DNA of 32,000 bases from NCBI RefSeq assembly GCF_965208555.1, contig NZ_OZ242342.1, positions 2,253,544 through 2,285,543 on the forward strand. Direction: 5' to 3'. The position numbers and the translations under genes are program-made. This DNA is from Candidatus Poriferisodalis sp. (GTDB taxonomy: Bacteria; Actinomycetota; Acidimicrobiia; Acidimicrobiales; Poriferisodalaceae). The first letter of the stretch is position 1. Every line of letters starts with the position of its first letter. Of the stretch, positions 1 through 24,593 are shown piece by piece. A model generated the notes under the pieces. The model made no database searches, had not been told where the DNA came from, and worked only from the letters and a program-made list of their open reading frames with translations.

Positions 1-576
1 ATGCAATTGTCTGAGCCGCTGGCCGACATCTCAAATCAAATAGTTGGCTACTACGACCGACAATTGGTACCTCCATTCATCGTGTACCAATATCCGCCAT
101 CGGATGAATACTTAGTTCGCCAAGAGCTGTTAGTGCTGACACGATGGCTCAAGGCTAAGCATGATATCGGCAGTCGGACGGTTTCACTGGCGGAGATATT
201 CTGGGAATCACTGACTGAACATGGCCGACTGCAAATGGTTGTCGAAGCAGAACAAGCGGGAAACTATGCCGACGCGCAGCTGGCTGTGCGCCAGATCTTG
301 GCTACTGCCCCTACACTCTCTGATCGCATTGTAGCGAAAATTGCAATTCCTCAAGACGAACGTGAAGCTGTCTTCTTGTACCGTGCTGGGGCATTGTATC
401 CAGCACACCGCACTAGCTCTTTGCTCGACGCTTTGAAAGATAAAATTGATCGACCGGTTACCATGCTCTACCCAGGCCGATTAGTCGGAGACTACGGCCT
501 GAGATTCATGGGCAAAACCGAACCGGCCTATGGATACCGGGCACTCATAGTTTCTCGTGAAGGAAAGCGCCAATGA
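1..576 (+). CDS. brxB: BREX protein BrxB (DUF1788 family)
   Basis: The ORF starts at base 1, so 5' completeness cannot be verified. It is ~190 aa. Segments PFIVYQYPPSDEY, FLYRAGALYP and TMLYPG fit my recollection of DUF1788/BrxB. It has an ATGA stop/start overlap with brxC and sits directly upstream of brxC, as in type 1 BREX. Confidence 0.7.
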   Translation: MQLSEPLADISNQIVGYYDRQLVPPFIVYQYPPSDEYLVRQELLVLTRWLKAKHDIGSRTVSLAEIFWESLTEHGRLQMVVEAEQAGNYADAQLAVRQILATAPTLSDRIVAKIAIPQDEREAVFLYRAGALYPAHRTSSLLDALKDKIDRPVTMLYPGRLVGDYGLRFMGKTEPAYGYRALIVSREGKRQ

Positions 577-3500
577 ACATAGGGCAGTTGTTTAGCCGTG
601 AGATCGACAGAGATATCAAGGAGGTAATCAAGGTTGATGATCATGATGCGGTGCTTGACGAGGTAGAGGAATACGTACTCACTAGCCACATCGCGTCGCA
701 AATGGTCGGAGCTCTCGAGTCCTTTCAGAGCACAATCAATAGTCCGAGCGAGGAGATCAACATTTGGATTAGTGGCTTCTTCGGTTCAGGCAAGTCATCA
801 TTCGCCAAGATACTAGGGTACCTGCTGGCCAATCCTCAGATTGATGGAAAGCCAGTTGCCAACCGATTCTTCGAGCTCCACGAGGTTCCGCCAGCCAAGG
901 CCCTCTTGAATACAATCTACGCAGCGGCGCCGACTGAGACCGTGCTGCTTGATCTCAACACTTCTCCCAACGTGCTTGAGGAGGGTGAGCCAGTCGTATT
1001 GCCCATATATCGCACTCTGCTACAGGCGCTTGGCTACAGCCGAGATCCGGTTCTCGCGGAACTTGAGTTCGAACTTGAAGGAAGAAACGATTACATTGGG
1101 TTCAGCGTTAAATATGAAGAGGTATTCGCTACAGAGTGGGTCGACCAGCGGGACTTTATTACGGCCAAGAACCGGGCTAGTCGTGTACTTCATGAGCTTG
1201 ATGACGCAACCTTTCCAGCGGCAGACTCATGGTCTAACGCGGCTAGCTTGCCTGCGGTTACTGCAAAATGGTTTGCCAATCGGGCTCTGGAATTGCTCCG
1301 GAGGCGGCGTCCTGGCAAAGAGCGACTGGTTCTGGTCGTAGATGAAGTCGGGCAGTACGTTTCTCGTTCTACCGACCGTATGCGTCACCTACAAGGTCTC
1401 GCGGAGGAATGCCAGAAGACAAAGGGTCGGCTTTGGCTAGTTGCTACATCGCAAGAAAAACTGACAGATGTTGTCGACAGCCTGGAAGGCAAGCAGACTG
1501 AACTGGCTAAGGCACAAGATCGCTTCCCTGTTCGAGTCGATCTGCTGCCATCGGACATCGACGAGGTCACTGGTAAACGAGTCCTCAACAAGACCGCGGC
1601 TGGCGCCGCGCGTGTTCGAGAATTGCTTGATGTGGATCGAAACAAGCTCGTGACGTCAGTTTCTCCACAATCTGACCGACATGGACCGTTCGCCGATGAG
1701 GACTTTGTGCGGCTCTATCCTCTCGTTCCTTATCAGCTTCACGTACTCATTGATGCTGTATCGGCTCGACGCGCGGAGGGTGGTGCGCCGCAAACCATGG
1801 GCGGATCTAATCGGACATTGATTCGCCATGCGCAACAGCTGATCAGTAATCAATCGGTGGGCCTTGCACCGATGCCAGTCGGCGCTCTCGTCACTCTGGA
1901 TCGGTCCTATATGCTGCTCGAGGATGTCATCCCCACAGCTTGGAGGCACGAGGTCGATCAAGTTGCGGCTAAGCACGGAGATGAGAGTCTCGAGGTGAAG
2001 ATCATGCGAGTAGTGGCGCTGTGCGCGGATGTGCCGGGCCTCGCGCTGACGACTCGAAACCTCGCAGTTGCCCTTCACCCGTCTATATCGGGGGATCCAA
2101 TTGAGGATGCTATCAGCGTGGCACTCGACAATCTGGTTGCTGAGGATCGTGTTCGCGAAACAGACGACGGTTACCGTTTGCAAAGTCCAGAGCAGAAAGA
2201 TTGGGAGAACACCAGGCGCGGCATCGAAATGAAGCCTGGAGACGCAGTGCGTTTGCGGCGGCACATTCTTGAGGACGCGCTAGGTACATTAACTGTGACG
2301 AAGAGGCGCTCCTTCAAGATTGAGCTGTTCGCAGAACGTGAGAAGGTGAGTGACGGTGATATCACGTTAGATGTGCGCGATCAGACCTCCATCGAAGATA
2401 TTCGTCAAACATCGCGCTTGGAGGATGCAAAGAATCGAATTTTCTGGTCCTTCAGCACTGAGGATGACACTTGGGAGGCGCTGGCCGAGTGTTATCGCAG
2501 CAACCAGATGATCGATCGCTATGACAACGTCGGTCAGTCCGATGTGCAACGTGTGCTTCTGGCCGAGGAGCGCAAGCGTCGTGACCGGGTACTCAGGACC
2601 GCTGAACAGCTCGTCGCTCGCGACGCCACTAACGGCACGACGATCTTTCGAGGAGTCTCGAGCGAGGCTCCCTCGGGTGAGCTTCGGGCTGCCGCAGGCC
2701 GGTTGATCAGCGGTTTGCTCGACGACATCTACCCCAGCATTCGTACATTCGCAGGCTCGATCAGGCGAGCCGAGGTGCTTCAAGTTCTCGAGGCCGACAG
2801 CCTTGATGGATTCGCCGATCAGCTCGGGCCCGAAGGACTTGGCCTCTTCAAGCTCACGGCGACAGGCAGACAGATGGTCACTGACGGCGGTCCAGTTGCG
2901 GCAGTCGTGACGCACATTCAGGCGCGCAATCAGTATGGCGAGGATCAGAACGGCGCACAGATTGAACGATTCTTCGGGGCGCCGCCGTTCGGTGCTCCGG
3001 TCGAATCAGTGCAGGCGGCCTTGGCAGCTGCAATGCGCGCTGGACTGATCGAGGTCGTTTCTCAGGCGGCTCGCATCACCTCGTTCACGGATCAGCGCCT
3101 CGGGCAGGTATTCGGAAGCATCACAAAATTCCGCGCCGCTTCGTTCAAACCGGCAGAGGAATCAGGGCCGTCGACCGAAGTACGCGGGGCCGTGAGCGAA
3201 TGGCTTGGAGGTATCACCGGCGAGGTCCTGTCGCTGGATCTCCACGAGCTAGCGGACGCTGGTCGCAACTCGTTTGCCGACTACCGCCAGCCCTGTACCG
3301 AGGCTCGCTCGACACTGGCTGGTGCGGGTCTGACCGTTCCTCAGTCGCTTGTCGACATGGACGAGCTCTTGGCACGCGTCACGAGTGCCGATGATGAGCT
3401 CGTTGTGACGACGCTGTTCGAGCGGCAGGCGGACCTGGATGCAGGGCGGGATTCGATTTCTGAGCTAGCGGCGGTTGTCGACGACCAGCTTGGGACTTTG

Positions 3501-4028
3501 CGTGCCGCAAAGAGTGCGAGGGAAATCGCAATACTGCTTGCCGATGGAGCCGGCTCAACTTGGGCTACTGAACTCGGAGAACTGCTCGATCGGGCTCAGT
3601 ACTCCGACGACCTAGCGCAGCTGAGGTCTTTGACTGCAAGTGTCGAACTGGCCGCGGAGCAGGAACGGATCGAGTTCCGGGCACGCGTGACTTCGCAAGT
3701 CGAGGACGCCTTGGAGAACCTGCGATCTCGCTACCCCCGGGTCGACGACAGCGCATTCGAAGATGCCACGGAACCGCTGCGCGGGCTCACAACCAGCAAT
3801 GATCTATCTCTCTTGCGTGCCAGCGCAGACGCCGTGCCCGGAATCGTCCTCAGGGTCGCAGAATTACTCGATGCTCTGTCCACGACCAAAGAAGTCCGTC
3901 ATATTCGCGTAAGCGACGTGTGGGGCGGCCCGATCACGTCACTTGACGACGTCGATACGGCTCTCGAACGTCTCCGCGAGGCTCTGCTCGCGCAACTCGA
4001 CGACAACACTGAAGTGCGACTCCGATGA
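573..4028 (+). CDS. brxC: BREX P-loop ATPase BrxC/PglY
   Basis: This is a 1151-aa ORF. The N-terminus MNIGQLFSREIDRDIKEVIKVDD and the P-loop ISGFFGSGKSSFAKILGYLL (nt ~770-800) are hallmark BrxC features. Its size and its position between brxB and pglX also fit. Confidence 0.9.
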   Translation: MNIGQLFSREIDRDIKEVIKVDDHDAVLDEVEEYVLTSHIASQMVGALESFQSTINSPSEEINIWISGFFGSGKSSFAKILGYLLANPQIDGKPVANRFFELHEVPPAKALLNTIYAAAPTETVLLDLNTSPNVLEEGEPVVLPIYRTLLQALGYSRDPVLAELEFELEGRNDYIGFSVKYEEVFATEWVDQRDFITAKNRASRVLHELDDATFPAADSWSNAASLPAVTAKWFANRALELLRRRRPGKERLVLVVDEVGQYVSRSTDRMRHLQGLAEECQKTKGRLWLVATSQEKLTDVVDSLEGKQTELAKAQDRFPVRVDLLPSDIDEVTGKRVLNKTAAGAARVRELLDVDRNKLVTSVSPQSDRHGPFADEDFVRLYPLVPYQLHVLIDAVSARRAEGGAPQTMGGSNRTLIRHAQQLISNQSVGLAPMPVGALVTLDRSYMLLEDVIPTAWRHEVDQVAAKHGDESLEVKIMRVVALCADVPGLALTTRNLAVALHPSISGDPIEDAISVALDNLVAEDRVRETDDGYRLQSPEQKDWENTRRGIEMKPGDAVRLRRHILEDALGTLTVTKRRSFKIELFAEREKVSDGDITLDVRDQTSIEDIRQTSRLEDAKNRIFWSFSTEDDTWEALAECYRSNQMIDRYDNVGQSDVQRVLLAEERKRRDRVLRTAEQLVARDATNGTTIFRGVSSEAPSGELRAAAGRLISGLLDDIYPSIRTFAGSIRRAEVLQVLEADSLDGFADQLGPEGLGLFKLTATGRQMVTDGGPVAAVVTHIQARNQYGEDQNGAQIERFFGAPPFGAPVESVQAALAAAMRAGLIEVVSQAARITSFTDQRLGQVFGSITKFRAASFKPAEESGPSTEVRGAVSEWLGGITGEVLSLDLHELADAGRNSFADYRQPCTEARSTLAGAGLTVPQSLVDMDELLARVTSADDELVVTTLFERQADLDAGRDSISELAAVVDDQLGTLRAAKSAREIAILLADGAGSTWATELGELLDRAQYSDDLAQLRSLTASVELAAEQERIEFRARVTSQVEDALENLRSRYPRVDDSAFEDATEPLRGLTTSNDLSLLRASADAVPGIVLRVAELLDALSTTKEVRHIRVSDVWGGPITSLDDVDTALERLREALLAQLDDNTEVRLR

Positions 4029-7000
4029 GCACAGCTCTCGCGGCTGACCAACGATCAGAGCTTGAGCAACTGATCCAGGACACCCGCGGCTGGCTGGAGG
4101 ACGATCTCAGCGAGAGTCTCGAAGGCAGATTCGGGATCCGACGTGACGGCCGCATCGAGTCCACGGAACGTCTCTCTTTGTCGAATTCGGATTCTCTTGT
4201 TCGGGCCAACCTTGTCGACATCGTGGAGTACTTGCGTTCGGAGGGCGCCGGTCGGGCGGAATCGGTTTCGCGCCTCATTCGAGAGGCGGCGTTTACCCAC
4301 ATCAATCGGATGGTGGCAGTGCGCGTTGCCGAAGCGGTCGGATTGCTCCCGGAGACCATAGCCAAGGGGCTTGCGTCATCTGGCTTCCGCGATTTCTCCG
4401 AACTCGCGCCTACGGTTGCGGTTACCGAATGGGGTCGGTTCAGCGAGTTTGTCCGGCTCTGCGCAGATGAACTTGCGACGGACGTGCCCGCGCTGTTCGA
4501 TCCGCGCAACCCTCTCATCGAACTCATGATGTCGGAGGCTGTGCTCGCCAGAGTTGTCGAGGCCTTCATTGACCTCGACGACATCATTTGGGCGGCTCCT
4601 GACACTCTGGGATGGACCTACCAGTACTTCAACACCGGAGCAGAGCGACGTGAGATGCGTGAGTCTTCTGCACCGCAGGACTCCCGCGAGCTCGCAGTCA
4701 GGAATCAGTTCTTTACGCCGAGCTACGTAGTCGATTTCCTGGTCCACAATGGCTTGGGCGCCTACCTCGCGAGCGGTCTTCCGGGCCTCGTTGAAGATCT
4801 CCCGTTGCTCGTCGATGCGCCGGTTGATCCGGCCGTGATCGACCTGAGTGCTGTCAACGTGCTGGATCCTGCTTGCGGGTCGGGCCATTTCTTGCTAGGC
4901 GCCTACGATGTCCTAGAAAGAGCTTGGCAGCACGTCGGTGTTGAGCCGGGCGCCGCTGCGCCGGAAATCTTGGCGTCGCTCTGGGGCATCGACATCGACC
5001 CGCGGGCAACACAGATCGCACAGGCAGCGATCATGTTCCGAGCTCGCCGACATTGCCGTGATGGTTCACTGCCGCCGGCAAACATCATCTGTGCACGATC
5101 GCTGCCGAGCGGACCAGCAGTGGAGGCGCTCATCGACGCGCTTCCCGCGCATGTGGCTCGGGTGGTGCGGTCAATCGGTACCGAGCTGAGCGACGCACCG
5201 GTACTGGGCTCCCTGCTGAGGATTGAGGAGCGGTTGACCCAGGAAGTACGGGACGTCTTTGGCGCAGGCGTCGTCGAGGGCACGTTGTCTGAAGTGGTGG
5301 TCTCAGGGGCCGACGACGTCGAAGCAGCTGTGCTCGCAGCGTTGAGCGAGATCGCAGGTTCGACCACCGCCGGTGCTGCGCAGCGGTTGTTCGCTGCCGA
5401 GGCCAGCGATGCAGTCAAGTTCGTGGAGGCGATGGCGCGCCGCTATACGGCCGTGCTGATGAATCCTCCCTTCGGTGAGCCGGTCCCCTCCACCAAGGAT
5501 TACCTCAAGTCGGCGTACCCATGGATTCCCGGCAAGGACTACAACCTTCTAGCGGCGTTCGTTGGGCGGGGCATCGAGCTAGCGGAGCCTGGGATCGGCA
5601 CATGCGGGGCAATTACCTCCCGCGCAGGACTGTTTCTCAAGACTTACGAGGCCTGGCGAAACGAGGTGTTGCTCGCGCACAAGCTCATAGCGACGGCCGA
5701 CCTTGGATACGGCGTGATGGACCAGGCTCTCGTTGAAGCTGCTGCGTACGTCCTGCGAAACGACCGGCCGGGTGGACGTAGCACGTTCATCCGACTGCTC
5801 AAGGATGCGGACCGCCCACGCGCGATGCAAGAAGAGATAGACGACGTTCGAAGGATCGGTGAAGGGGATCGAACCTTTCGAATAGCGCTCGACGATCTGC
5901 GAGGGATCCCCGGGTCACCGGTCGCGTACTGGATGGACGAGTCGGTTCGGCGCCTCTTTCGTGAGTTGCCCGCGCTCGAGGGTTCGGGAGCTTACGCAAG
6001 GCAGGGCTTAGCAACGGGCGACGACTTCCGATTTGTCAGAGCCTTTTGGGAGGTGGATCCTGAGCGAATTGGCAATTCGGTCTCTGACACTAAGCGTGGA
6101 CACCGTTGGGTTCCGTTCGCCAAGGGCGGCGAGTACAGCCCATTTTGGGCCGACATTCACTTAGTAGTTGATTGGTTGAACGATGGCGAGGTGATTCGAG
6201 GGCACGACAAGTCGCGCGCGCAGAACACGCAGTTCTATTTCCGACCTGGCCTCACTTGGCCTCGGCGCACCAATTCTGGTCTAGGCATGAGAGTCTTACC
6301 GAGCGGGACTGTATTCGCCGATAAGGGATCAGCAGTCTTTGCCGTAGACGATCTCTTCAGCGTCCTTGGGTGGCTGCGTGGCCGACTCGCTCAAGCGATG
6401 ATCGACGCGATGGTGTCGGCGGGTGAGGAGGTGTCATCCGGCGGCGCGTCACGGAGCTACGAGGTCGGCCTCGTGCAGAAACTCGCTTGGGTTCACATTC
6501 CCGAACTGAACCCAGTAGCAGCCCGTCTCGCGAGCAGAAGAGCTTGGCAAGACGATTCTGACGAGACGACGCGTCGGTTCGTCCGGCCGAAGGGCTTCGT
6601 CACGACGGACTTATCGAATCACCTTGAGCAGTTGGCGGACGGTCAAGAATTGGACGAGCTCGTGATCCGTCATGCCGGGATCGACGATGGTGGTCGGGCG
6701 TATCTCGATGAGGAAATCGGTCCGTTTCCACTCTCTTACCCAGAGACTGACAGTCTTGATGATCGCATCGCCGATCTATACCAGAGGCCAATCAAGGAGA
6801 TCATTGATGAACTCATCCAAGAGAGAGGCGGCTCGAGAGCGATAGCGAATCTGACTTTCGTCGCAGACCGTCGACTCGAAGTGATTTCCCACGGACTCGA
6901 AGTCAATCCGAGGACGATTGTACGAGTGATTAAGGAACGCGGGCTCACTGTGCCAGGCGAATCCGAGGACCAGGCGTTCCGACTCGTCTCGTACCTTGTT

Positions 7001-7804
7001 GGACTCGCCTTTGGACGCTGGGATGTGAGAATCGGACGCGACGCGGGGTTGGCGACGGTGGCGTCAGATCTCCAGTCGCCGCCGGCCCGCTACGCACCCG
7101 GCACATTGCTGACGCCCGACGGCCGCGCTGCGGCTTCGACTCTGCGCGACTATCCGATCGAGTTTCCAGCAGACGGCGTCTTGGTTGACCAACCCGGCCA
7201 TGAACGAGATGTCACCGCAGCGGTTGAGCAAGCTGGGGTTGCGCTGAGCGACTCCGATGAGGCGCTCGACGCCGCCCTTGGCGCGCTCATGCGCCGGCCC
7301 TCGCTGTCAGTGTTTCTGCGAAACCAGTTCTTCCGACGACATCTCAACATGTACACGATGAGTCGACGCAAGGCTCCTATCTACTGGCAGCTCCAGGTGC
7401 CCTCGAAGCGATGGGGCCTTTGGCTGTACGCGCCCAAGTTGTGCCGCGAAATGCTGTTTGCGGTGGTTCACGAAGCCGACCAGCGGCGACGGTTGGCTGA
7501 TCAGCAAATGAGGCAATTGCAGCGCGAAGAGGCGGCAGGCAACAGTGGCCGTCGAGCAAGCGAGATCGCCACCGATCTTGCATTAGAGCACGAATTGGCC
7601 GTCGAGCTTGAGGCGTTCCTCGCGGCAGCCGAACGGGTTGCCAACCTTGGCTGGCAACCGAACCTTGATGACGGCATCGTTCTCAACGCTGCACCGCTGG
7701 CCGACTTGTTTCCTGCGTGGAGAGAGGCTGCCATGTTCCGCACGAAGTTGCGAAACGGACACCACCGGTGGGCAGCCGTGGCCGAATACGCGGATCAGCT
7801 GTGA
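4025..7804 (+). CDS. pglX: BREX N6-adenine DNA methyltransferase PglX
   Basis: This is a 1259-aa ORF. It has SAM-binding motif I, VLDPACGSGHFLLGAYD (nt ~4860-4905), and catalytic motif IV, MNPPFGEP (nt ~5460-5480). It has an ATGA overlap with the brxC stop, and its size and position are typical of PglX. Confidence 0.9.
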   Translation: MSTALAADQRSELEQLIQDTRGWLEDDLSESLEGRFGIRRDGRIESTERLSLSNSDSLVRANLVDIVEYLRSEGAGRAESVSRLIREAAFTHINRMVAVRVAEAVGLLPETIAKGLASSGFRDFSELAPTVAVTEWGRFSEFVRLCADELATDVPALFDPRNPLIELMMSEAVLARVVEAFIDLDDIIWAAPDTLGWTYQYFNTGAERREMRESSAPQDSRELAVRNQFFTPSYVVDFLVHNGLGAYLASGLPGLVEDLPLLVDAPVDPAVIDLSAVNVLDPACGSGHFLLGAYDVLERAWQHVGVEPGAAAPEILASLWGIDIDPRATQIAQAAIMFRARRHCRDGSLPPANIICARSLPSGPAVEALIDALPAHVARVVRSIGTELSDAPVLGSLLRIEERLTQEVRDVFGAGVVEGTLSEVVVSGADDVEAAVLAALSEIAGSTTAGAAQRLFAAEASDAVKFVEAMARRYTAVLMNPPFGEPVPSTKDYLKSAYPWIPGKDYNLLAAFVGRGIELAEPGIGTCGAITSRAGLFLKTYEAWRNEVLLAHKLIATADLGYGVMDQALVEAAAYVLRNDRPGGRSTFIRLLKDADRPRAMQEEIDDVRRIGEGDRTFRIALDDLRGIPGSPVAYWMDESVRRLFRELPALEGSGAYARQGLATGDDFRFVRAFWEVDPERIGNSVSDTKRGHRWVPFAKGGEYSPFWADIHLVVDWLNDGEVIRGHDKSRAQNTQFYFRPGLTWPRRTNSGLGMRVLPSGTVFADKGSAVFAVDDLFSVLGWLRGRLAQAMIDAMVSAGEEVSSGGASRSYEVGLVQKLAWVHIPELNPVAARLASRRAWQDDSDETTRRFVRPKGFVTTDLSNHLEQLADGQELDELVIRHAGIDDGGRAYLDEEIGPFPLSYPETDSLDDRIADLYQRPIKEIIDELIQERGGSRAIANLTFVADRRLEVISHGLEVNPRTIVRVIKERGLTVPGESEDQAFRLVSYLVGLAFGRWDVRIGRDAGLATVASDLQSPPARYAPGTLLTPDGRAAASTLRDYPIEFPADGVLVDQPGHERDVTAAVEQAGVALSDSDEALDAALGALMRRPSLSVFLRNQFFRRHLNMYTMSRRKAPIYWQLQVPSKRWGLWLYAPKLCREMLFAVVHEADQRRRLADQQMRQLQREEAAGNSGRRASEIATDLALEHELAVELEAFLAAAERVANLGWQPNLDDGIVLNAAPLADLFPAWREAAMFRTKLRNGHHRWAAVAEYADQL

Positions 7805-10287
7805 CTGAACTACGCGAACAGCTGAGGGCCGATCTGGCGGCGCACGTAGAGCAGCGTGGCGTTGTTGTCTGGGACGACCCTGAAGCTGCATACGCAGGAG
7901 TCGCCGCTGACGTCGTGCCCGAAGGCACGGCACTGCAGGAGTTCAGCGGCAGTTGGCTGGAGCTCCGACATCGGCTGGAGCGCCACATGGCCGGGCAAGA
8001 GCCCCCTGCCTTGATTGTGTACGTACCGACCAAGCCCCCTGACCCAGACCCCCTTGAGGAGATACGTGCGGTTTGTAGGCCTTACCGCAGGAGATTGCCG
8101 ACCCTACTGAAGCACGCACTCAAGGGTCAGCTCACAGAGCAAAGGATCACTCAGATCGGCCGACAGTGCGCAACATTTGCGGACGCCGAAGCCGCACTCG
8201 ATGCTGGCGACAGGCAGGTTGACGCGCGATTGATCTCGGTTCTTGGCGAGACATCAACAGCGGCCCTGGCTGCCGCCCTGATTTGCGGCACGCATGAAGC
8301 AGCACTGGCTAGGCGGTCACTGGAGAGTGCCTGCCGCCAGTTGATCACCGAGGCAATCGGCGGAAGCTATGACAGTCTCGATGACTCCGAGTTCCGGGAT
8401 GCCGCTTTTCGGCAGGTTGTGCTTGGCCACCTTGCTGAGGCCGGTGTGGGTCTACCGCCCGACCTGAATGCCTCGGTTGCGACGACGACGCCGTTGCAGC
8501 GGAGGAACTGCGCGGACATCATCGAGATGCTCCAGGTTCGTATGGAGTTCCGAGCGGCCTACGTCGAGCTGGCTGAGATGGCCGACCAGCAACTTCATCT
8601 CGGGACACTGCTGACATGGGCTCACGAGCTCCGCACAGTGGATGCAACGCCTGCAATCGATCTGCTCGGCCTTGACGCCGCAATTCGAGCTCTCGAGGCT
8701 GGTGATGAGCAAGTTGCCGTCGAGCTCGCCAGCGACCGCTTGTCGATGAGCTGGTGGCTGAGATCTTCAGCGCCCGATGCAGTTTCGCTCGTCGTGAAGT
8801 TCCGCGCCGTCCGAGCGCTCGCACAACTTGGGATCTCCATCGCACGGCCTGTGCCGGCGCTTCGCTCCCTGTTGGATGTCCGCGATTGGTACCAGGACGA
8901 GGGCTGGCAGGTTGATTCTGGGTACCGCCAAAGTGAGTTGATTCGCGTCTCGTCAGGCATTGTTCTCGACGAGTTCGACGAGCTGTATCACAGCGCTCGT
9001 CGGCGCTACGAGGCATGGCTTGATCAGATTCTCCGTGACTCCGCGGATGCGTTGTCGGCGCCTGAGATCCCGACCAACGATCAACAGCGCTCGATCCACG
9101 CAAGCTTCTTGCGCGATCAAACCATGCGGACCGCGTATTTTCTCGTTGACGCTCTCCGATACGAACTCGGCATGGATCTCGTCGAACGATTGGGAGCCTT
9201 GAATGCTGATGTCGAGCACCGAGCAGTTGTGGCCACGCCCCCGACCATTACGCCGGTCGGAATGGCAGCCCTTCTGCCGAATGCCGATACTGAGTTCCTC
9301 GTCGAACTTGACGAAGGCGATCGGCTCGTGGTGTCCGTCGGTGGCAGCGTGGTCAAGTCGGCCAGAGATCGCGTTCGTCAGCTGGAGCACGCGCACGGTG
9401 CGATCACCGACTTACACCTCGATGATGTAGCACAGCTAACGAACCAAGAACTCAAGAAGGTGCTCGGCGACTCTTCACCGGTGCTAGTGCGCTCAACCGA
9501 AATCGATTCCGATGGTGAGTCCGACCAACTCGCTGCCAGTTGGGGCTCATTCGACTCGACACTGGGCGTGCTGCAAACGGCAGTCGCCAAGCTGTTTCAT
9601 GCAGGGGTTGAGAGGGTTGTGATTGCGTCTGACCATGGCTTTCTCGCCGTTAGGCAGCTCGGCGAGGAACGCCGGATCGACAAGCCATCGACTGGCGCCG
9701 GCGAGTCACATCGTCGCTCGTGGATCGGTCGCGGAGGCACGGCGTCTCAGTCGATGGTCAAGATCTCGCTTGCTGCCTTCGGCATCGCTGGAGGTCTCGA
9801 GATCATTACTCCCCGAGGACTCGGTGTGTTCGCAACCGGTGGGGGCCTCCAGTTCTTCCATGGGGGGCTATCGCCTCAGGAGCTCGTCATTCCGGTGATA
9901 GTTGCCACCGCCAGAGATGCTTCAGACGATCCGCAGTACAGGATCGACCTCGATGTTGCAGGTCAGCGAATCACGACCGGCGTCGTCGCTGTCACCTTAA
10001 TGATGACTGGCAACCTCTTCACCCGAGAGAGCCGGATTCGCCTGCAGCTTGTCCAGGATGACAACCGGGTTGGCGCGGTTGTTGGCGGCGACGGATTCGA
10101 CCCCGCGACCGAGACGATTGACGCCAGCGTCGACGCCGCACGTGTCATCACTGTGCAGGTGACGGCGAACCTCGTGGCCGGCTCGATCGCCACACTTGAG
10201 GTGAGCGACGCCGCAACCGGTGTTCGGCTTGAGACTCTGAATATTGCAGTCGGTGCGAATGTGATTGTGGAAGACAACCTTGACTGA
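7801..10287 (+). CDS. pglZ: BREX alkaline-phosphatase-superfamily protein PglZ
   Basis: The ORF-track start at 7717 overlaps pglX by 88 nt. I prefer the in-frame GTG at 7801, which gives a GTGA overlap with the pglX stop at 7802-7804. Motifs YFLVDALRYELG (nt ~9130-9170) and VIASDHGFL (nt ~9620-9650) are typical of the PglZ domain. Confidence 0.88.
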   Translation: MTELREQLRADLAAHVEQRGVVVWDDPEAAYAGVAADVVPEGTALQEFSGSWLELRHRLERHMAGQEPPALIVYVPTKPPDPDPLEEIRAVCRPYRRRLPTLLKHALKGQLTEQRITQIGRQCATFADAEAALDAGDRQVDARLISVLGETSTAALAAALICGTHEAALARRSLESACRQLITEAIGGSYDSLDDSEFRDAAFRQVVLGHLAEAGVGLPPDLNASVATTTPLQRRNCADIIEMLQVRMEFRAAYVELAEMADQQLHLGTLLTWAHELRTVDATPAIDLLGLDAAIRALEAGDEQVAVELASDRLSMSWWLRSSAPDAVSLVVKFRAVRALAQLGISIARPVPALRSLLDVRDWYQDEGWQVDSGYRQSELIRVSSGIVLDEFDELYHSARRRYEAWLDQILRDSADALSAPEIPTNDQQRSIHASFLRDQTMRTAYFLVDALRYELGMDLVERLGALNADVEHRAVVATPPTITPVGMAALLPNADTEFLVELDEGDRLVVSVGGSVVKSARDRVRQLEHAHGAITDLHLDDVAQLTNQELKKVLGDSSPVLVRSTEIDSDGESDQLAASWGSFDSTLGVLQTAVAKLFHAGVERVVIASDHGFLAVRQLGEERRIDKPSTGAGESHRRSWIGRGGTASQSMVKISLAAFGIAGGLEIITPRGLGVFATGGGLQFFHGGLSPQELVIPVIVATARDASDDPQYRIDLDVAGQRITTGVVAVTLMMTGNLFTRESRIRLQLVQDDNRVGAVVGGDGFDPATETIDASVDAARVITVQVTANLVAGSIATLEVSDAATGVRLETLNIAVGANVIVEDNLD

Positions 10288-12286
10288 GACTTCGACCCAC
10301 GCCTACGAACGGTTGGACGAGATTGCCAACCGAAACTTCCCAGGTCGCGTCGTTCGCAAGGACCTTGTGCGACAGGTGAAGGTGGGAGCCAGCGTTCCTG
10401 TCTACGTTCTTGAGTTTCTCCTCGGCAGGTACTGCGCGTCTGACGACACTGCTGCCATCGAGGCTGGACTTGCAGTTGTCAATCAGACACTCGCAGAGAA
10501 CTTCATCCGCCCGGACGAGTCCGAGAAGGCCAAGGCAGAACTCAAGAAGAAGGGCAAGCACCGATTGATCGACAAGGTCGACGTGCGCTTCGTGGAGGGC
10601 GATAAGAAGTTCTGGGCGACGCTCCACAACTTTGGCTCTCGGTACGTCAACGTTCCTGAGGAGATCGTGTACAAGTACGACCGTCTCTTGGGCGGTGGTG
10701 CTTGGTGCCAGCTCGACCTAGTCTACAACGACCTTGAAGACGCGGCTCAGAAGACGCCGTTCTACATCTCGGCGCTCAAACCCATCCAGGTCGCAGCGTT
10801 CGACTACGACTTCTACGTCGAGGCTCGCGACGGATTCAGCCGCGATGACTGGCTCGACCTCATCATGCGCACCGTTGGTCTCGAGCCAACGGAATACGAC
10901 TTGCGCGGCAAGCTGCTCGCGCTCACGCGGTTGATTCCCATGGCCGAGCGCAACTACAACCTCATCGAGCTAGGCCCGTGGGGCACTGGCAAGTCATTTG
11001 TGTTTCGCGAGTCGAATCCGAACACCATCCTGATCTCGGGAGGCAAAGTCACTGTCGCGCAGCTCTTTGTCAACATGTCGACGGGTCGCGTAGGCCTGCT
11101 CGGCACATGGGATGTCGTCGCCTTCGACGAGGTTGCCGGCCTCCAGATGTCGGACTCGACGGTGATCAACATGCTCAAAGACTTCATGGAGTCCGGTTCG
11201 TTTGCTCGCGGCAAGGAGGAGATCCCGGCTGAGGCGTCCATCGTGTATGTCGGCAATACGTCGAAGCCACACGAGGAGTTGGTCCGAACAGCGCATCTCT
11301 TCGCTGATCTACCACCGTCGATGATCGATCCCGCGTTCTTGGATCGGCTGCACTACTACGTGCCAGGCTGGGAGACCCCGAAGCTTGAAAAGAGGCTCTT
11401 CACGAACCACTTCGGATTTGTGTCTGACTACTTCGCTGAGGCGCTACGACAGCTACGGAAACAGAGCTACGTACGGGCGATCGACACCGACTTCAGCCTT
11501 GGCTCCCATCTGGCAGCGCGCGACGAGAAGGCCGTGCGCAAGACCGTCTCCGGCTTGCTGAAGATTTTGCATCCGCACGGAAAGTGGAGCCATGGAGAGC
11601 TCCGCGAGTACCTCGAGTTTGCCCTCGAGGGCCGGCGGCGGGTAAAGGAGCAGCTTAGGAAGCTGGCCGCTCATGACTACGCAAAAACCGCCTTTTCCTA
11701 CGTCGAGAACGACACAGGCCGAGAGATTTGGGTCGATGTTCCAGAACAGCCCGAGGCATTTGACGCTGAGGAGGCCGTCGCCGAGGACGCTTCAGCGAGC
11801 GATTCAAGTCTCAGCATTGCTGAGCTTGTCGCGGCGGGCGAAAGTAAGACGGTTGAGTTCAAGCGATCCGCCCGCTATAACGAACACACAGGTGTTCGGG
11901 ATAAGAACATCGAACGCGCTGTGGTCAAGACCGTCGCGGGCTTCATGAACGCTGCCGGTGGAGTATTGCTCATCGGTGTAAATGATGACGGCTCCGTTTC
12001 GGGCATTGAGATTGACTACCCACTAACTGGAAACAAGGGTCGAGACGGCTTCGAAAACTGGCTCATTACCAAGCTTGAGCAGGAACTAGGCAAGACGCCC
12101 ACAGCATCATTACTGTATGTCACATTTGAGCAGACTGAGGATGGCGACATATGTCGGGTCGACATCGAGCCCTCCGACCAACCCGTATACATGGGCGGCG
12201 AAGCAGATTTCTACGTTCGTATGGGCAACTCCACACGCTCATACAACACGCGTGATGCGCTCACCTATATCCAAGCGCATTGGTGA
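10265..12286 (+). CDS. brxL: BrxL-family AAA+ protein with a non-canonical C-terminal AlbA_2/Schlafen-like domain in place of the Lon-like domain
   Basis: N-terminal motifs match BrxL: NFPGRVVRKDL, VPVYVLEFLLGRYC, Walker A GPWGTGKS (nt ~10975-10998), Walker B VVAFDEVAG, EGRRRVKEQLRKL and FSYVENDTGREIWVDVPEQ. After an acidic/Ser-rich linker, the C-terminal ~165 aa read AELVAAGESKTVEFKRSARYN...VKTVAGFMNAAGGVLLIGVNDDGSVSGIE, which is AlbA_2-like. Only TTG starts are available, at 10265 or 10280. The second has GGAAGA 5 nt upstream. Confidence 0.85.
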   Translation: MWKTTLTETSTHAYERLDEIANRNFPGRVVRKDLVRQVKVGASVPVYVLEFLLGRYCASDDTAAIEAGLAVVNQTLAENFIRPDESEKAKAELKKKGKHRLIDKVDVRFVEGDKKFWATLHNFGSRYVNVPEEIVYKYDRLLGGGAWCQLDLVYNDLEDAAQKTPFYISALKPIQVAAFDYDFYVEARDGFSRDDWLDLIMRTVGLEPTEYDLRGKLLALTRLIPMAERNYNLIELGPWGTGKSFVFRESNPNTILISGGKVTVAQLFVNMSTGRVGLLGTWDVVAFDEVAGLQMSDSTVINMLKDFMESGSFARGKEEIPAEASIVYVGNTSKPHEELVRTAHLFADLPPSMIDPAFLDRLHYYVPGWETPKLEKRLFTNHFGFVSDYFAEALRQLRKQSYVRAIDTDFSLGSHLAARDEKAVRKTVSGLLKILHPHGKWSHGELREYLEFALEGRRRVKEQLRKLAAHDYAKTAFSYVENDTGREIWVDVPEQPEAFDAEEAVAEDASASDSSLSIAELVAAGESKTVEFKRSARYNEHTGVRDKNIERAVVKTVAGFMNAAGGVLLIGVNDDGSVSGIEIDYPLTGNKGRDGFENWLITKLEQELGKTPTASLLYVTFEQTEDGDICRVDIEPSDQPVYMGGEADFYVRMGNSTRSYNTRDALTYIQAHW

Positions 12287-12395: not shown

Positions 12396-13376
12396 ATGGA
12401 TGCTAAAGGCGATGGGGAAACGGCCGAGAACTCAAACGATCGAACAATAGGCTCCGATGACTTTTTTGGGCCGTGGGAGCCAGCGCCAATTCAATCGTTA
12501 GACGAGTTTCTCCAACTCATCCGTGACACGTTTTCGCGCTGGAGTTCCAAAGATGTGCACTATGCCTGGCGCGGTGTTCAGAATGCGGGTTGGCCGTTAC
12601 ACAGCGCACTCTATCGACGGATGATTTGGACAAACCCACATCAAACATATGAAACAAGCCTAGAGAGGCTTGAGGGCAAGATCTTAGCTGATGCCAACCG
12701 TTGGGGTTTGCATTTCTTGGATCGAGCACACTTGCCGGTGTTATATCAGTTGGCGATGCTCCAGCATTTTGGTGCTCCTACCCGGCTGATTGATGTCACG
12801 TTTAATCCGCTCATTGCTTTGTATTTTGCAGTTGAGGCTAAAGAAGATACTCCAGGAACGGATACTCATGCCAGCGATGACGGCCGACTCTTTATTTTCG
12901 ATGTTTCGAATCGATTAATCAATGAGTCGAATCGCATTGAGCGTCAATGGGAGCTGGTGTCCAAGAGACCGTGGCGCTCGACAGTGAAGGGCGTCAAGGA
13001 TTGGAGTACTCGCTACTGGGCATGGCGTCCAGCCGCTATTGAGGCGCGATTCTCAGCGCAAAATAGTGGCTTTATCTTTGGAGGCGTGCCTAAGACGGGA
13101 AGTATAACTTGGCCAAAATCGACGTTGCCCGGTGACACTTGGGGCATTGAGACGGTGAAACGCTTCACGTCGGTACCACTCCGGCTGCACAAGCTCGAAA
13201 TGAACGCTGGCCGTCCGCCACATAATCCTACAATGACCGTTCGAGTAGATGCCGATGCCAAAGTCAGGATTCGTGAAGAGCTGGGACAATGGTTTGATAT
13301 CGAAGCGCGAACCGTGTTTCCCGATTATCCGGGATTCGCCGAGCGCGGAGTGTCAGGCCTAAAACGTGGCTTATAG
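12396..13376 (+). CDS. FRG-domain protein
   Basis: This is a 326-aa ORF with GGAAGGA 8 nt upstream of the ATG. It has YAWRGVQNAGWPLHSALYRR (a WRG variant of the FRG motif), LAMLQHFGAPTRLIDVTFNPLIALYFAV and ARFSAQNSGFIF. The C-terminal IREELGQWFDIEARTVFPDYPGFAE matches the FRG family (PF08867) pattern as I recall it. It has the lowest GC in the window. Confidence 0.8.
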   Translation: MDAKGDGETAENSNDRTIGSDDFFGPWEPAPIQSLDEFLQLIRDTFSRWSSKDVHYAWRGVQNAGWPLHSALYRRMIWTNPHQTYETSLERLEGKILADANRWGLHFLDRAHLPVLYQLAMLQHFGAPTRLIDVTFNPLIALYFAVEAKEDTPGTDTHASDDGRLFIFDVSNRLINESNRIERQWELVSKRPWRSTVKGVKDWSTRYWAWRPAAIEARFSAQNSGFIFGGVPKTGSITWPKSTLPGDTWGIETVKRFTSVPLRLHKLEMNAGRPPHNPTMTVRVDADAKVRIREELGQWFDIEARTVFPDYPGFAERGVSGLKRGL

Positions 13377-13638: not shown

Positions 13639-14385
13639 GTGGCTGACAAGTCGGCGATCGAGTGGACCGAGGCGACGTGGAACCCGACCACGGGCTGCGA
13701 TCGGGTGTCGCCGGGCTGCGACCGCTGCTATGCGCAGACCCTGGCCAAGCGGCTCAAGGCGATGGGGTCGCCCAAGTACCAGAACGACGGCGACCCGGCG
13801 ACGAGCGGGCCGGGCTTCAAGCTCACCTTGCATCGGTCATCGCTCGACGTGCCTCGACGCTGGAGCGCACCCCGCCTCGTGTTCGTGGACTCGATGAGCG
13901 ATCTCTTCCATGACGATGTGCCGCCCGAGTTCATCGCGCAGGTCTTCGAGGTGATCCGCCAGACGCCCCAGCACACCTACCAGGTGCTCACCAAGCGAGC
14001 GCAGCGGCTGAGCCGGATCGCAGGCGATCTCGACTGGCCGTCGAACCTGTGGATGGGCGTGAGCGTGGAGACTCGCCGGTACGCCTTCCGCATCGATCAC
14101 CTGCACAAGGTGCCTGCAGCGGTGAGGTTCGTGAGCGCCGAGCCGTTGCTCGGCCCGCTCGGCGAGCTCGATCTGGCAGGCATCGACTGGGTGATTGCCG
14201 GCGGCGAGTCCGGTGCCGGCGCCCGGCCCATGGAGCTGGAGTGGGTCACCGAGCTGCGCGACAGGTGCACGGCGGCGGGCGTGGCGTTCTTCTTCAAGCA
14301 GTGGGGAGGCAGGACGCCCAAGGCCGGCGGTCGGGAGCTCGAGGGCGAGGTGTGGAACGAGCTGCCGGCGGGGGTGGCGAGCTAG
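13639..14385 (+). CDS. DUF5131 / phage Gp37-Gp68 family three-Cys protein
   Basis: GTG start, 248 aa. The N-terminus SAIEWTEATWNPTTGCDRVSPGCDRCYAQ carries the three-Cys motif. Downstream segments VFVDSMSDLFH, YQVLTKR, FVSAEPLLGPL, DWVIAGGESG and FFFKQWGG are characteristic of this family. Confidence 0.85.
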   Translation: MADKSAIEWTEATWNPTTGCDRVSPGCDRCYAQTLAKRLKAMGSPKYQNDGDPATSGPGFKLTLHRSSLDVPRRWSAPRLVFVDSMSDLFHDDVPPEFIAQVFEVIRQTPQHTYQVLTKRAQRLSRIAGDLDWPSNLWMGVSVETRRYAFRIDHLHKVPAAVRFVSAEPLLGPLGELDLAGIDWVIAGGESGAGARPMELEWVTELRDRCTAAGVAFFFKQWGGRTPKAGGRELEGEVWNELPAGVAS

Positions 14386-24314: not shown

Positions 24315-24593
24315 GGGGCCGGCTCAGCCGGACTCGCCGGCGAGGCGATTGAGAATGCGGCTGTGGCGATTCATGGACGCCGCAAGTCGTTGCTGGAAGG
24401 TGTCGTCGGTGCGGCAGGCGCCGGCGGGTTGCTCGTGGGCGCTGCGGTGTGCCTTGGCCATGGGAGAACGGTAGGGCAGTGGCGGCTTCTGGTCCGCATC
24501 GTTTTGGGGCGGAGCCCGCACGGCGGCTTGCAGGTCACCGCTGCGGCGCCAGCTCGGAAGAACTTGTCACACCCCTCTCCTACGTTGGCCGCC

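What the first reader, a model, noticed from the sequence alone, without database searches (positions are those of the whole stretch)
11777..12286. BrxL whose Lon-like C-terminal domain appears to be replaced by an AlbA_2/Schlafen-type domain
Residues ~1-495 track canonical BrxL: the N-domain, the MCM-like AAA+ core with Walker A GPWGTGKS and Walker B VVAFDEVAG, then EGRRRVKEQLRKL and FSYVENDTGREIWVDVPEQ. Canonical BrxL continues from there into a Lon-protease-like domain. This ORF instead has an acidic/Ser-rich linker (EAFDAEEAVAEDASASDSS). That is followed by ~165 aa beginning AELVAAGESKTVEFKRSARYN and continuing VKTVAGFMNAAGGVLLIGVNDDGSVSGIE. This is the E-x-x-E-F-K opening and central beta-strand pattern I associate with AlbA_2 (PF04326), the fold at the core of Schlafen nucleases. 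How BREX actually stops phage is unresolved. A nucleic-acid-binding or nuclease module swapped onto the BrxL motor would be a mechanistic clue, and it implies that the BrxL C-terminus is a modular effector slot. I cannot tell from the sequence alone whether this architecture is already catalogued.
Basis: partly seen in the sequence, partly recalled or inferred. Interest (0 to 1): 0.78.

Follow-up and report, generated by a model that had tools for sequence, protein, structure and literature searches.

The report
BrxL motor with Schlafen-type nuclease tail
The last gene of this BREX anti-phage operon encodes a normal BrxL DNA-loading ATPase whose usual inactive Lon-like end is replaced by a Schlafen/AlbA_2 nuclease domain with every catalytic residue intact; this variant is real and widespread but barely described, and it suggests that some BREX systems carry a built-in RNA- or DNA-cutting effector.

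Summary
ORF 10265-12286 (+, 673 aa; WP_419930863.1, Candidatus Poriferisodalis, Acidimicrobiia) closes a type-1 BREX operon (brxB-brxC-pglX-pglZ-brxL).

- **Motor:** residues 1-496 are canonical BrxL, 15-496 aligning with the solved Acinetobacter BrxL up to where its C-terminal domain starts.
- **Tail:** after an acidic, variable linker, residues 526-673 are an AlbA_2/Schlafen domain (Pfam E 1e-17; AF2 pLDDT 92). Foldseek hits bacterial AlbA_2 proteins, SAMD9 and SLFN5/11/13/14, and no Lon.
- **Active site:** E526-x4-E531-x-K533, the AGFMN box and D574 are invariant or nearly so in 153 tails, while the tail overall diverges faster than the motor (57% vs 84% identity).
- **Not an artefact:** all 120 best homologues share the architecture, and 26 species-representative genomes from several phyla have the fusion in frame behind BREX genes.
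- **Slot:** BrxL C-termini carry Lon-like, PLD/MIT_C, AlbA_2 or kinase domains, Lon+AlbA_2, Lon+PIN/NYN, Lon+HEPN, MIT_C+AlbA_2, or nothing.

Published surveys list only the Lon, HKD/MIT_C and tail-less forms.

Best reading: an oligomerisation-gated Schlafen nuclease, probably a tRNase, tethered to the BrxL ring. This is a new variant of a known kind, of moderate interest.

The parts
1..576 (+). brxB (BREX type 1 component); brxA would lie upstream of the window
   Evidence: Pfam PF08747 BrxB, E 1.4e-18
573..4028 (+). brxC (BREX P-loop/AAA+ protein)
   Evidence: NCBIfam NF033441 BREX_BrxC, E 1.6e-176, above cut-off
4025..7804 (+). pglX (BREX adenine methyltransferase)
   Evidence: NCBIfam NF033452 BREX-1 PglX, E 1e-147 (493.9 bits, just under the 500 cut-off); Pfam Eco57I and MmeI_Mtase
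7717..10287 (+). pglZ (BREX alkaline-phosphatase-fold protein); true start may be downstream of the first GTG
   Evidence: Pfam PF08665 PglZ, E 3e-14; best NCBIfam hits are BREX PglZ models, all below their cut-offs
10265..12286 (+). brxL-AlbA_2: whole ORF, 673 aa (NCBI aa, WP_419930863.1)
10334..10726 (+). BrxL N-terminal DNA-binding domain (residues 24-154)
   Evidence: Pfam PF20442, E 2.3e-42
10760..11698 (+). MCM-like AAA+ ATPase core (residues 166-478). Walker A GPWGTGKS at nt 10973-10996; Walker B VVAFDEVAG at nt 11114-11140.
   Evidence: Pfam PF13337, E 6e-126. Aligns with 8EMC BrxL. Walker residues are invariant in 38 homologues.
11753..11839 (+). Acidic, Ser/Ala-rich flexible linker (residues 497-525; 8 D/E, no K/R)
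   Evidence: 24% identity among homologues and 22-38 aa in length. pLDDT 52-74 in the tail model and <50 for 495-508 in the full-length model.
11840..12283 (+). AlbA_2 / Schlafen-type domain (residues 526-673), occupying the position of the Lon-like CTD of canonical BrxL
   Evidence: Pfam PF04326, E 1e-17. AF2 pLDDT 92.3. Foldseek hits 3LMM, SAMD9 7KSP/9O0D, SLFN13 5YD0, SLFN14, SLFN5 and SLFN11.
11840..11863 (+). Predicted catalytic motif E526-x4-E531-x-K533 (ESKTVEFK)
   Evidence: Aligns with SLFN11 E209/E214. 153/153 tails conserve E, E and K. The motif is described as catalytic in PMC13056530 and in the SLFN-pAgo preprint.
11936..11950 (+). Schlafen box equivalent AGFMN (residues 558-562), followed by GG 565-566
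   Evidence: A558, F560, N562, G565 and G566 are 99-100% conserved. Compare the SAFAN box in the SLFN-pAgo preprint.
11984..11986 (+). D574, the third acidic residue of the predicted metal site (IGVNDD)
   Evidence: Aligns with SLFN11 D252. 151/153 tails conserve it.
12396..13376 (+). Neighbouring FRG-domain gene (PADLOC candidate PDC-S15). Shares the low GC of the BREX block but is not conserved next to brxL-AlbA_2 elsewhere.
   Evidence: Pfam PF08867, E 3e-16. PADLOC PDC-S15, E 2e-26. Absent from the other 80 loci. GC 0.516.

Best explanation
This is the BrxL restriction-arm ATPase of a type-1 BREX system. The catalytically dead Lon-like C-terminal domain, which in canonical BrxL only glues two rings tail to tail, has been swapped for a catalytically competent single-lobe Schlafen/AlbA_2 nuclease on a flexible acidic tether.

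Proposed mechanism:
- Shown by sequence: the N-domain and MCM-like AAA+ core are intact, so the motor should still assemble ATP-dependently into rings around DNA, as solved for Acinetobacter BrxL.
- Inferred: ring assembly, licensed by the BREX complex on unmethylated phage DNA, brings the six tethered Schlafen domains into the dimer or higher-order contacts that single-lobe prokaryotic Schlafens need for activity.
- Inferred: the activated domains then cleave nucleic acid in a metal-dependent manner. The substrate is most probably tRNA, giving translation arrest or abortive infection as a built-in second layer. Less probably it is the nucleic acid held by the ring.

BrxL is thus sensor and scaffold, and the tail is the effector.
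For: **Domain identity and fold:**

**Intact active site despite fast divergence:** E526, E531 and K533 are conserved in 153/153 tails and D574 in 151/153, with the AGFMN/GG box also conserved. Tail identity averages 57% against 84% for the motor. These positions align with SLFN11 E209/E214/D252.

**Experimental precedent:**
- The Ex4(E/D)xK motif is required for defence and for Mn-dependent tRNA cleavage in RorSlfn5, which is a hexamer (PMC13056530).
- SLFN-pAgo needs ATP-driven oligomerisation to pair single-lobe SLFN domains into an active tRNase (preprint 10.64898/2026.05.29.728809).
- Cash is activated by filament formation (PMC13462974).

**Same slot, other effectors:** in other BrxLs the terminal position holds PIN/NYN, HEPN, PLD/MIT_C or kinase domains. 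AlbA_2 also occurs appended after an intact Lon_C or MIT_C domain (P0140 family, P0144), so it is an add-on effector and not merely a structural substitute.

**Conserved BREX context:** found in 26 genomes from several phyla.

**Motor likely functional:** Walker A/B and other motor residues are invariant.
Against: - No biochemical or genetic data exist for any BrxL-AlbA_2 protein.
- Conservation of the motif is also a feature of the Pfam family at large and cannot by itself prove catalysis.
- The substrate is unknown. SAMD9's and SLFN5's AlbA_2 domains also bind DNA.
- The canonical CTD has a structural, ring-dimerising role (PMC10164562) that the tail might simply take over.
- The full-length model was too poor (pLDDT 63.7) to show how tails could pair, and model coordinates could not be inspected for active-site geometry.
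- The closest relatives of the tail outside BREX are membrane-anchored ~260-aa proteins of unknown function.
Confidence: 0.6

Rival explanations
1. The AlbA_2 tail is a non-catalytic module. It would be either a nucleic-acid-binding or regulatory domain, or a replacement for the tail-to-tail ring-dimerisation interface that the Lon-like CTD provides. Restriction would then still be carried out by other BREX parts such as PglZ.
For: - The canonical BrxL CTD is non-catalytic, lies far from the DNA and mediates ring dimerisation, and a CTD mutation alters ATPase regulation (PMC10164562).
- AlbA_2 domains of SAMD9 (7KSP) and SLFN5 (7CUX) are DNA/RNA binders, and both are among the fold hits.
- Schlafen domains naturally self-associate.
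Against: - The complete catalytic set (E-x4-E-x-K, D, Schlafen box) is invariant in a domain that otherwise diverges quickly.
- AlbA_2 is also found appended behind an intact Lon_C or MIT_C domain, where no structural replacement is needed.
- The same slot hosts PIN/NYN, HEPN and PLD enzymes.
Confidence: 0.25
2. The tail is an active nuclease that acts on DNA rather than tRNA. It would cut or nick the phage DNA on which the BrxL ring is loaded, making this BREX a degradative restriction system analogous to the proposed BrxL-HKD DNase variants.
For: - The tail is tethered by a 22-38 aa flexible linker to a ring that encircles dsDNA.
- The parallel BrxL tail class is a PLD/HKD fold that was proposed to be a DNase (PMC12839542, PMC12065111).
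- MIT_C+AlbA_2 double tails exist (P0144).
Against: - Every prokaryotic or animal Schlafen/SAMD9 nuclease characterised in the papers read cleaves tRNA/RNA, and RorSlfn5 was reported not to act on DNA (PMC13056530, PMC13462974).
- The alternative modules in the terminal slot behind Lon_C (PIN/NYN, HEPN) are RNase folds.
Confidence: 0.12
3. Artefact: a frameshift, a misassembly or a read-through join of a tail-less brxL with a separate downstream AlbA_2 gene.
For: - Standalone relatives of the tail exist.
- One locus (L006) holds only the last ~90 motor residues plus the tail, without BREX genes.
- One locus (L005) has an interrupted brxL.
Against: - The ORF is uninterrupted.
- An identical RefSeq protein exists.
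- 120 of the 120 best homologues have the same architecture.
- The fusion is in frame in 26 genomes of different phyla.
- The linker is retained although variable.
Confidence: 0.01

Closest known systems
Acinetobacter BrxL (PDB 8EMC/8EMH; Shen et al. 2023, PMC10164562)
   Same: The N-terminal DNA-binding domain plus MCM-like AAA+ core align over residues 15-496 (E 1e-153). Same position as the last gene of a type-1 BREX operon. Walker A/B intact.
   Different: The ~180-aa Lon/RadA-like C-terminal domain that dimerises the rings is absent. In its place are an acidic linker and an AlbA_2/Schlafen domain with an intact nuclease motif.
BrxL-HKD / BrxL-MIT_C variants (PMC12065111, 2025; PMC12839542, 2026: 1030 of 2913 type-1 BrxLs)
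   Same: Same principle: the Lon-like domain of BrxL is replaced by a putative nuclease domain at the C-terminus. The two classes are intermixed on the motor tree.
   Different: Different fold and chemistry: PLD/HKD with an HRD motif versus Schlafen with E-x4-E-x-K...D. The AlbA_2 version is not listed in either paper's text or in the held supplements.
Prokaryotic Schlafen defence nucleases: RorSlfn5 (PMC13056530), Cash (PMC13462974), SLFN-pAgo (preprint 10.64898/2026.05.29.728809)
   Same: Single-lobe PF04326 domain with the Ex4(E/D)xK motif and a SAFAN-like box, fused to a sensor or oligomerising module in a defence context. In those systems activity is gated by oligomerisation.
   Different: The partner is a BrxL MCM-like AAA+ ring inside a multi-gene BREX system, and the Schlafen domain is C-terminal. 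No activity data. The fusion is not named in those papers. Cash 'Cluster 2' mentions ATPase-containing Schlafens associated with BREX, without detail that I could read.
Schlafen-GHKL/HisK-wHTH genes adjacent to BREX loci (PMC12839542: at least 1017 taxa)
   Same: A Schlafen RNase domain recruited to BREX as a presumed back-up effector.
   Different: Those are separate genes with their own ATPase and wHTH. Here the Schlafen domain is covalently part of the core BrxL protein.
Human SLFN11 (PDB 7ZEL and others)
   Same: A Schlafen nuclease coupled to an NTPase that senses DNA. The catalytic residues E209/E214/D252 align with E526/E531/D574.
   Different: SLFN11 has a bilobal N-terminal Schlafen core and a C-terminal SF1 helicase. 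Here a single lobe sits C-terminal to an AAA+ ring ATPase. Sequence similarity is marginal (E 0.26).

Membership tests
BrxL (BREX type-1 AAA+ protein) | BrxL N-terminal domain (HTH-like + OB) | tested here: met
   PF20442, E 2.3e-42, residues 24-154
BrxL (BREX type-1 AAA+ protein) | MCM-like AAA+ ATPase core with Walker A/B | tested here: met
   PF13337, E 6e-126. TIGR02688 scores 557.7 bits (cut-off 329) and TIGR02653 scores 682.4 bits (cut-off 628). GPWGTGKS and DEVAG are invariant.
BrxL (BREX type-1 AAA+ protein) | Encoded at the 3' end of a brxA-B-C-pglX-pglZ operon | tested here: met
   brxB, brxC, pglX and pglZ lie directly upstream on the same strand. brxA is outside the window. The same context holds in 26 related loci.
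BrxL (BREX type-1 AAA+ protein) | C-terminal Lon/RadA-like domain (classical definition; the literature now accepts HKD and tail-less forms) | tested here: not met
   TIGR02653 is matched only to position 483 of 675 and 8EMC only to residue 487. There is no Lon_C/ChlI Pfam hit and no Lon fold hit.
Schlafen / AlbA_2 nuclease domain (PF04326) | Profile match above the curated threshold | tested here: met
   62-65 bits against a gathering score of 25.3, covering model positions 1-116 of 118
Schlafen / AlbA_2 nuclease domain (PF04326) | Two-layer alpha+beta AlbA_2 fold like the Schlafen C-lobe | tested here: met
   AF2 pLDDT 92.3. Foldseek probability 1.00 to 3LMM, 7KSP, 9O0D, 5YD0, 9NYY, 7CUX and 7FEX; TM (query-normalised) 0.43-0.59.
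Schlafen / AlbA_2 nuclease domain (PF04326) | Catalytic E-x4-(E/D)-x-K motif plus a third acidic residue, and a SAFAN-like box | tested here: met
   E526/E531/K533 conserved in 153/153 tails, D574 in 151/153, and AGFMN 558-562 conserved
Schlafen / AlbA_2 nuclease domain (PF04326) | Divalent-metal-dependent tRNA/RNA cleavage | not testable with these tools
   Needs biochemistry; precedent only from RorSlfn5, Cash and SLFN-pAgo
Schlafen / AlbA_2 nuclease domain (PF04326) | Oligomerisation that pairs single lobes into a bilobal active unit | tested here: inconclusive
   The monomer full-length model was of low confidence (pLDDT 63.7). No multimer prediction tool was available.
Lon protease S16 C-terminal domain | Lon_C fold, with or without the Ser-Lys dyad | tested here: not met
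   No Pfam/NCBIfam or structural match in residues 497-673. Lon_C is readily detected in sibling BrxLs.

The most novel reading that the evidence does not exclude
In this BREX clade the long-sought 'restriction' step would be, at least in part, executed by BrxL itself. DNA-licensed, ATP-dependent ring assembly would switch on six tethered Schlafen tRNases, making BREX here a hybrid of self/non-self methylation sensing and Schlafen-type translation shut-off.

More generally, the BrxL C-terminus would be an interchangeable effector socket (Lon-like, PLD, Schlafen, PIN/NYN, HEPN, protein kinase). Its diversity would show that BrxL is the activation platform of BREX rather than a replication roadblock.
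Probability: 0.35. Interest if true: 0.78.

Novelty: new variant of a known kind. Interest (0 to 1): 0.57.

Why it matters
How BREX stops phage, and what BrxL does, are still open questions (PMC12707154 lists both). A BrxL that carries an enzyme with an easily assayed output (tRNA or other nucleic-acid cleavage, E526A/E531A controls) would give a direct read-out of when and on what BrxL is activated. That is something the inert Lon-like domain of the model systems cannot offer.

The survey also shows that the C-terminal slot of BrxL is much more varied than the three published forms. It includes three unrelated RNase folds and a protein kinase, which argues that BrxL is a platform delivering effectors.

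Practically, these proteins are all annotated 'protease Lon-related', which hides the variant from annotation-based searches.

Tried and rejected
- **Full-length AF2 model:** pLDDT 63.7, with the ATPase core below 50. It is unusable for domain packing and only confirms a disordered linker and a confident tail.
- **Supplementary tables:** those of the two Schlafen survey papers are not held. I could not check whether a BrxL fusion hides among 'pSlfn1-55' or in Cash 'Cluster 2'.
- **Are the published 'HKD' tails mis-called AlbA_2 tails?** Rejected. MIT_C/PLD tails form a separate class, and one protein has both.
- **Frameshift or fusion artefact:** rejected.
- **Linkage of the downstream FRG and DUF5131 genes to the fusion:** FRG is absent from the 80 related loci and DUF5131 appears in only 2, one of them without BREX, so they are independent island cargo.
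- **brxL-FRG intergenic region:** the promoter/terminator scan gave nothing above shuffled expectation.
- **NJ motor tree:** it has no support values, so 'polyphyletic' is indicative only.
Full report
**1. The observation**

The window holds an uninterrupted ORF at 10265-12286 on the + strand (TTG start, 673 aa).
- Walker A GPWGTGKS, residues 237-244
- Walker B VVAFDEVAG, 284-292
- EGRRRVKEQLRKL, 455-467
- FSYVENDTGREIWVDVPEQ, 477-495
- acidic linker EAFDAEEAVAEDASASDSS, 497-515
- ESKTVEFK, 526-533

Pfam finds BrxL_N (24-154, E 2e-42), BrxL_ATPase (166-478, E 6e-126) and SLFN_AlbA_2 PF04326 (526-659, E 1e-17, 62 bits against a cut-off of 25.3).

The Lon-containing BrxL model TIGR02653 is matched only over its positions 3-483 of 675. 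The solved Acinetobacter BrxL (8EMC) aligns only over query 15-496 / chain 7-487, which is where that protein's linker to its C-terminal domain lies. No Lon_C or ChlI match is found here, although both are readily found in sibling BrxLs.

**2. Context**

The gene is the last of a co-directional type-1 BREX operon:
- brxB, 1-576
- brxC, 573-4028
- pglX, 4025-7804
- pglZ, 7717-10287
- brxL, 10265-12286

brxA would lie upstream of the window. The identical protein is WP_419930863.1 from Candidatus Poriferisodalis sp., an Acidimicrobiia lineage. It is named 'protease Lon-related BREX system protein BrxL' although it has no Lon domain.

The BREX genes and the following FRG gene have a lower GC content (0.51-0.61) than the window as a whole (0.64), which fits an acquired island.

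**3. The tail is a genuine Schlafen-type domain**

An AlphaFold2 model of residues 497-673, built with a 41-sequence alignment, has pLDDT 92.3 and pTM 0.87. The first ~20 linker residues are of low confidence.

Foldseek against the PDB returns only AlbA_2/Schlafen folds at E < 1e-3:
- C. diphtheriae DIP2311 (3LMM)
- the SAMD9 DNA-binding/tRNase domain (7KSP, 9O0D)
- SLFN13 (5YD0), SLFN14, SLFN5 and SLFN11

A RecG-related N-domain (2KYY) follows at E 2.5e-3, and no Lon-like structure appears.

phmmer aligns the tail with SLFN11 so that E526, E531 and D574 fall on SLFN11 E209, E214 and D252 (PDB numbering +28). The identity of those SLFN11 residues as catalytic is from my own knowledge, and is consistent with the Ex4ExK motif described in PMC13056530.

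Conservation was measured across 153 tails, comprising BrxL fusions of 40-100% identity plus standalone relatives:
- E526, E531 and K533 are 100% conserved.
- D574 is 98.7% conserved.
- A558-x-F560-x-N562 and G565-G566, the equivalent of the SAFAN box, are 99-100% conserved.

This holds although the tail evolves much faster than the motor. Mean identity to the query is 57% for the tail against 84% for the motor, and the linker is 24% identical and 22-38 aa long.

**4. Not an artefact, and not rare**

All 120 best database homologues (68-100% identity) carry the same three Pfam domains.

A scan of one genome per species found at least 550 stretches related to the tail. Of the best 80 loci:
- 26 have the tail in the same reading frame as a BrxL motor. 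BrxC, PglX and PglZ lie upstream wherever enough sequence is available.
- These 26 come from Acidimicrobiia, other Actinomycetota (Mycobacterium sp. E2733, Rubrobacter, Gaiella, Solirubrobacterales), Thermoanaerobaculia and Gemmatimonas.
- 53 encode the tail subfamily outside BREX. Of the 34 that yielded a short ORF, most are ~260-aa proteins with three predicted N-terminal transmembrane helices.
- One locus had too little upstream sequence to classify.

**5. The BrxL C-terminus is a swap site**

I searched 50%-identity representatives with the motor alone. This gave 690 proteins at E <= 1e-30, of which the best 150 were inspected. Of these, 97 have an intact motor end. Their tails are as follows:

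| Tail | Representatives |
|---|---|
| None (<40 aa) | 39 |
| Short tail (40-89 aa), not classified | 7 |
| Lon_C | 24 |
| AlbA_2 alone | 7 |
| MIT_C/PLD-like | 7 |
| Protein kinase | 5 |
| Lon_C+PIN | 1 |
| Lon_C+HEPN | 1 |
| Lon_C+AlbA_2 | 1 |
| MIT_C+AlbA_2 | 1 |
| Unassigned | 4 |

The Lon_C+AlbA_2 form is a recurrent family:
- Its members are P0140, P0301-P0303, P0318, and P0320 at only 42% identity.
- P0140 sits in a pglX-pglZ-brxL operon behind a large, unannotated upstream ORF.
- Its nearest relatives include MAGs labelled as Asgard archaea. They carry either no extra domain, or a NYN/Zc3h12a RNase (PF11977), or HEPN_Swt1, at the same terminal position.

On a rough neighbour-joining tree of motor domains, AlbA_2-tailed BrxLs are scattered among Lon-, MIT_C- and kinase-tailed ones (no support values). 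This suggests repeated swaps.

**6. How it most likely works**

*Shown by sequence.* The DNA-binding N-domain and the AAA+ core, with invariant Walker motifs, are intact. The protein should therefore form ATP-dependent rings on DNA like Acinetobacter BrxL, whose CTD only makes tail-to-tail ring contacts, lies far from the DNA and lacks protease residues (PMC10164562).

*Established elsewhere:*
- Prokaryotic Schlafen domains are defence effectors whose Ex4(E/D)xK motif is needed for Mn-dependent tRNA cleavage. RorSlfn5 is a hexamer (PMC13056530).
- Single-lobe Schlafen domains must be paired by regulated oligomerisation to become active. In SLFN-pAgo this is ATP-driven tetramerisation. In Cash it is filament formation.

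*Inferred.* BrxL ring assembly on BREX-licensed, unmethylated phage DNA brings the tethered tails together and switches on a nuclease. The substrate is most probably tRNA, which would give translation arrest as a built-in second layer.

Two observations argue for an effector rather than a structural substitute:
- Three unrelated RNase folds (Schlafen, PIN/NYN, HEPN) occupy the same terminal slot.
- AlbA_2 can be added behind an intact Lon_C or MIT_C domain.

I put about 0.6 on 'active nuclease effector'. Within that, tRNA/RNA is favoured over DNA.

Rivals are a non-catalytic binding or dimerisation module (0.25), a DNA-targeting nuclease (0.12, a sub-case of the first as regards catalysis), and an artefact (about 0.01).

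**7. Comparison with what is known**

The general idea that the Lon-like domain of BrxL can be replaced by a nuclease is published:
- 1030 of 2913 type-1 BrxLs with an HKD-endoDNase, and tail-less type-4 BrxL (PMC12839542).

That survey lists Schlafen RNases only as separate HisK-wHTH-fused genes next to BREX. Its text and held supplements list just three BrxL versions.

The two Schlafen surveys do not mention BrxL. One reports ATPase-containing Schlafens 'tightly associated' with BREX, without readable detail. A full-text search for BrxL together with Schlafen or AlbA found nothing else.

PADLOC's five BrxL models do not cover the tail. The tail's only PADLOC hit is a weak match to the N-terminus of a pAgo model, which I take to be an SLFN-pAgo-type protein.

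The protein is therefore a bona fide BrxL by motor and context, and a bona fide PF04326 domain by profile, fold and motif. The combination is a new variant of a known kind.

**8. Verdict**

The finding is real and correctly interpreted. It is common in nature, and present but mislabelled in databases. It appears not to be explicitly described in the literature I could search.

Its value lies in offering an assayable effector on BrxL, and in extending the 'effector slot' picture to Schlafen, PIN/NYN, HEPN and kinase modules. Its surprise value is tempered by the 2025-2026 reports of BrxL-HKD and of Schlafen genes near BREX. Interest: 0.57.

Noticed in passing
P0130, P0132, P0158, P0182, P0240 (BrxL homologues, not in the window): BrxL motors with a C-terminal Ser/Thr protein-kinase domain (PF00069, E 1e-33 to 1e-38) in place of the Lon-like domain. 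This is a BrxL tail class I did not find in the BREX literature searched.
   Followed up: partly
P0123, P0135, P0310/P0311/P0313/P0314, P0391/P0408 (BrxL homologues, several from MAGs labelled as Asgard and ANME archaea): Lon-type BrxLs with an extra terminal RNase-type domain: PIN_4/DUF5615, NYN/Zc3h12a (PF11977) or HEPN_Swt1 (PF18731).
   Followed up: partly
P0144 (MEN8713848.1, Verrucomicrobiales MAG): A BrxL with two putative nuclease tails in series: MIT_C/PLD-like (E 8.5e-44), then AlbA_2 (E 1.6e-19).
   Followed up: no
Loci L013, L020, L022, L027, L028, L033-L036, L038, L042-L045, L049-L053, L058 and others; P0284-P0299: The closest non-BREX relatives of the tail (40-50% identity) are ~260-aa proteins with about three predicted N-terminal transmembrane helices (two matched YeaQ/YmgE PF04226) followed by the AlbA_2 domain with the same catalytic motif. 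These are membrane-anchored Schlafen-like proteins of unknown role.
   Followed up: partly
L006 9743-10474 (Acidimicrobiaceae MAG COS4_bin_1; probably the same gene as P0272, not checked): An ORF made of only the last ~90 residues of a BrxL motor plus the AlbA_2 tail, with no BREX genes in the 10 kb upstream. It is apparently a remnant of a decayed BREX locus, or a solo tail gene.
   Followed up: no
window 12396-13376 (+): An FRG-domain protein (PF08867) matching PADLOC candidate defence family PDC-S15, directly downstream of brxL. It shares the low GC of the BREX block (0.516) but is not found next to brxL-AlbA_2 in the other loci.
   Followed up: partly
window 13639-14385 (+): A DUF5131 (phage Gp37/Gp68-like) protein matching PADLOC candidates PDC-M41B/M30B, with a weak hit to 'radical SAM mobile pair protein A'. 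Its GC is very high (0.688; GC3 0.90), unlike the BREX block.
   Followed up: no
window 16997-21982 (+): A 1661-aa ORF with repeated cadherin-like beta-sandwich and PPC (pre-peptidase C-terminal) domains, probably a large surface or adhesion protein. No NCBIfam or PADLOC match.
   Followed up: no
window 24000-26333 (+): A 777-aa ORF with a DUF222 domain (PF02720). From my own knowledge, not checked here, this domain often accompanies HNH endonuclease genes in Actinomycetota.
   Followed up: no
window 10265-12286; WP_419930863.1: The public annotation names this and related proteins 'protease Lon-related BREX system protein BrxL' or 'ATP-dependent Lon protease' although they contain no Lon domain. 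The TIGR02653 cut-off is passed on the motor alone (682 against 628 bits).
   Followed up: yes
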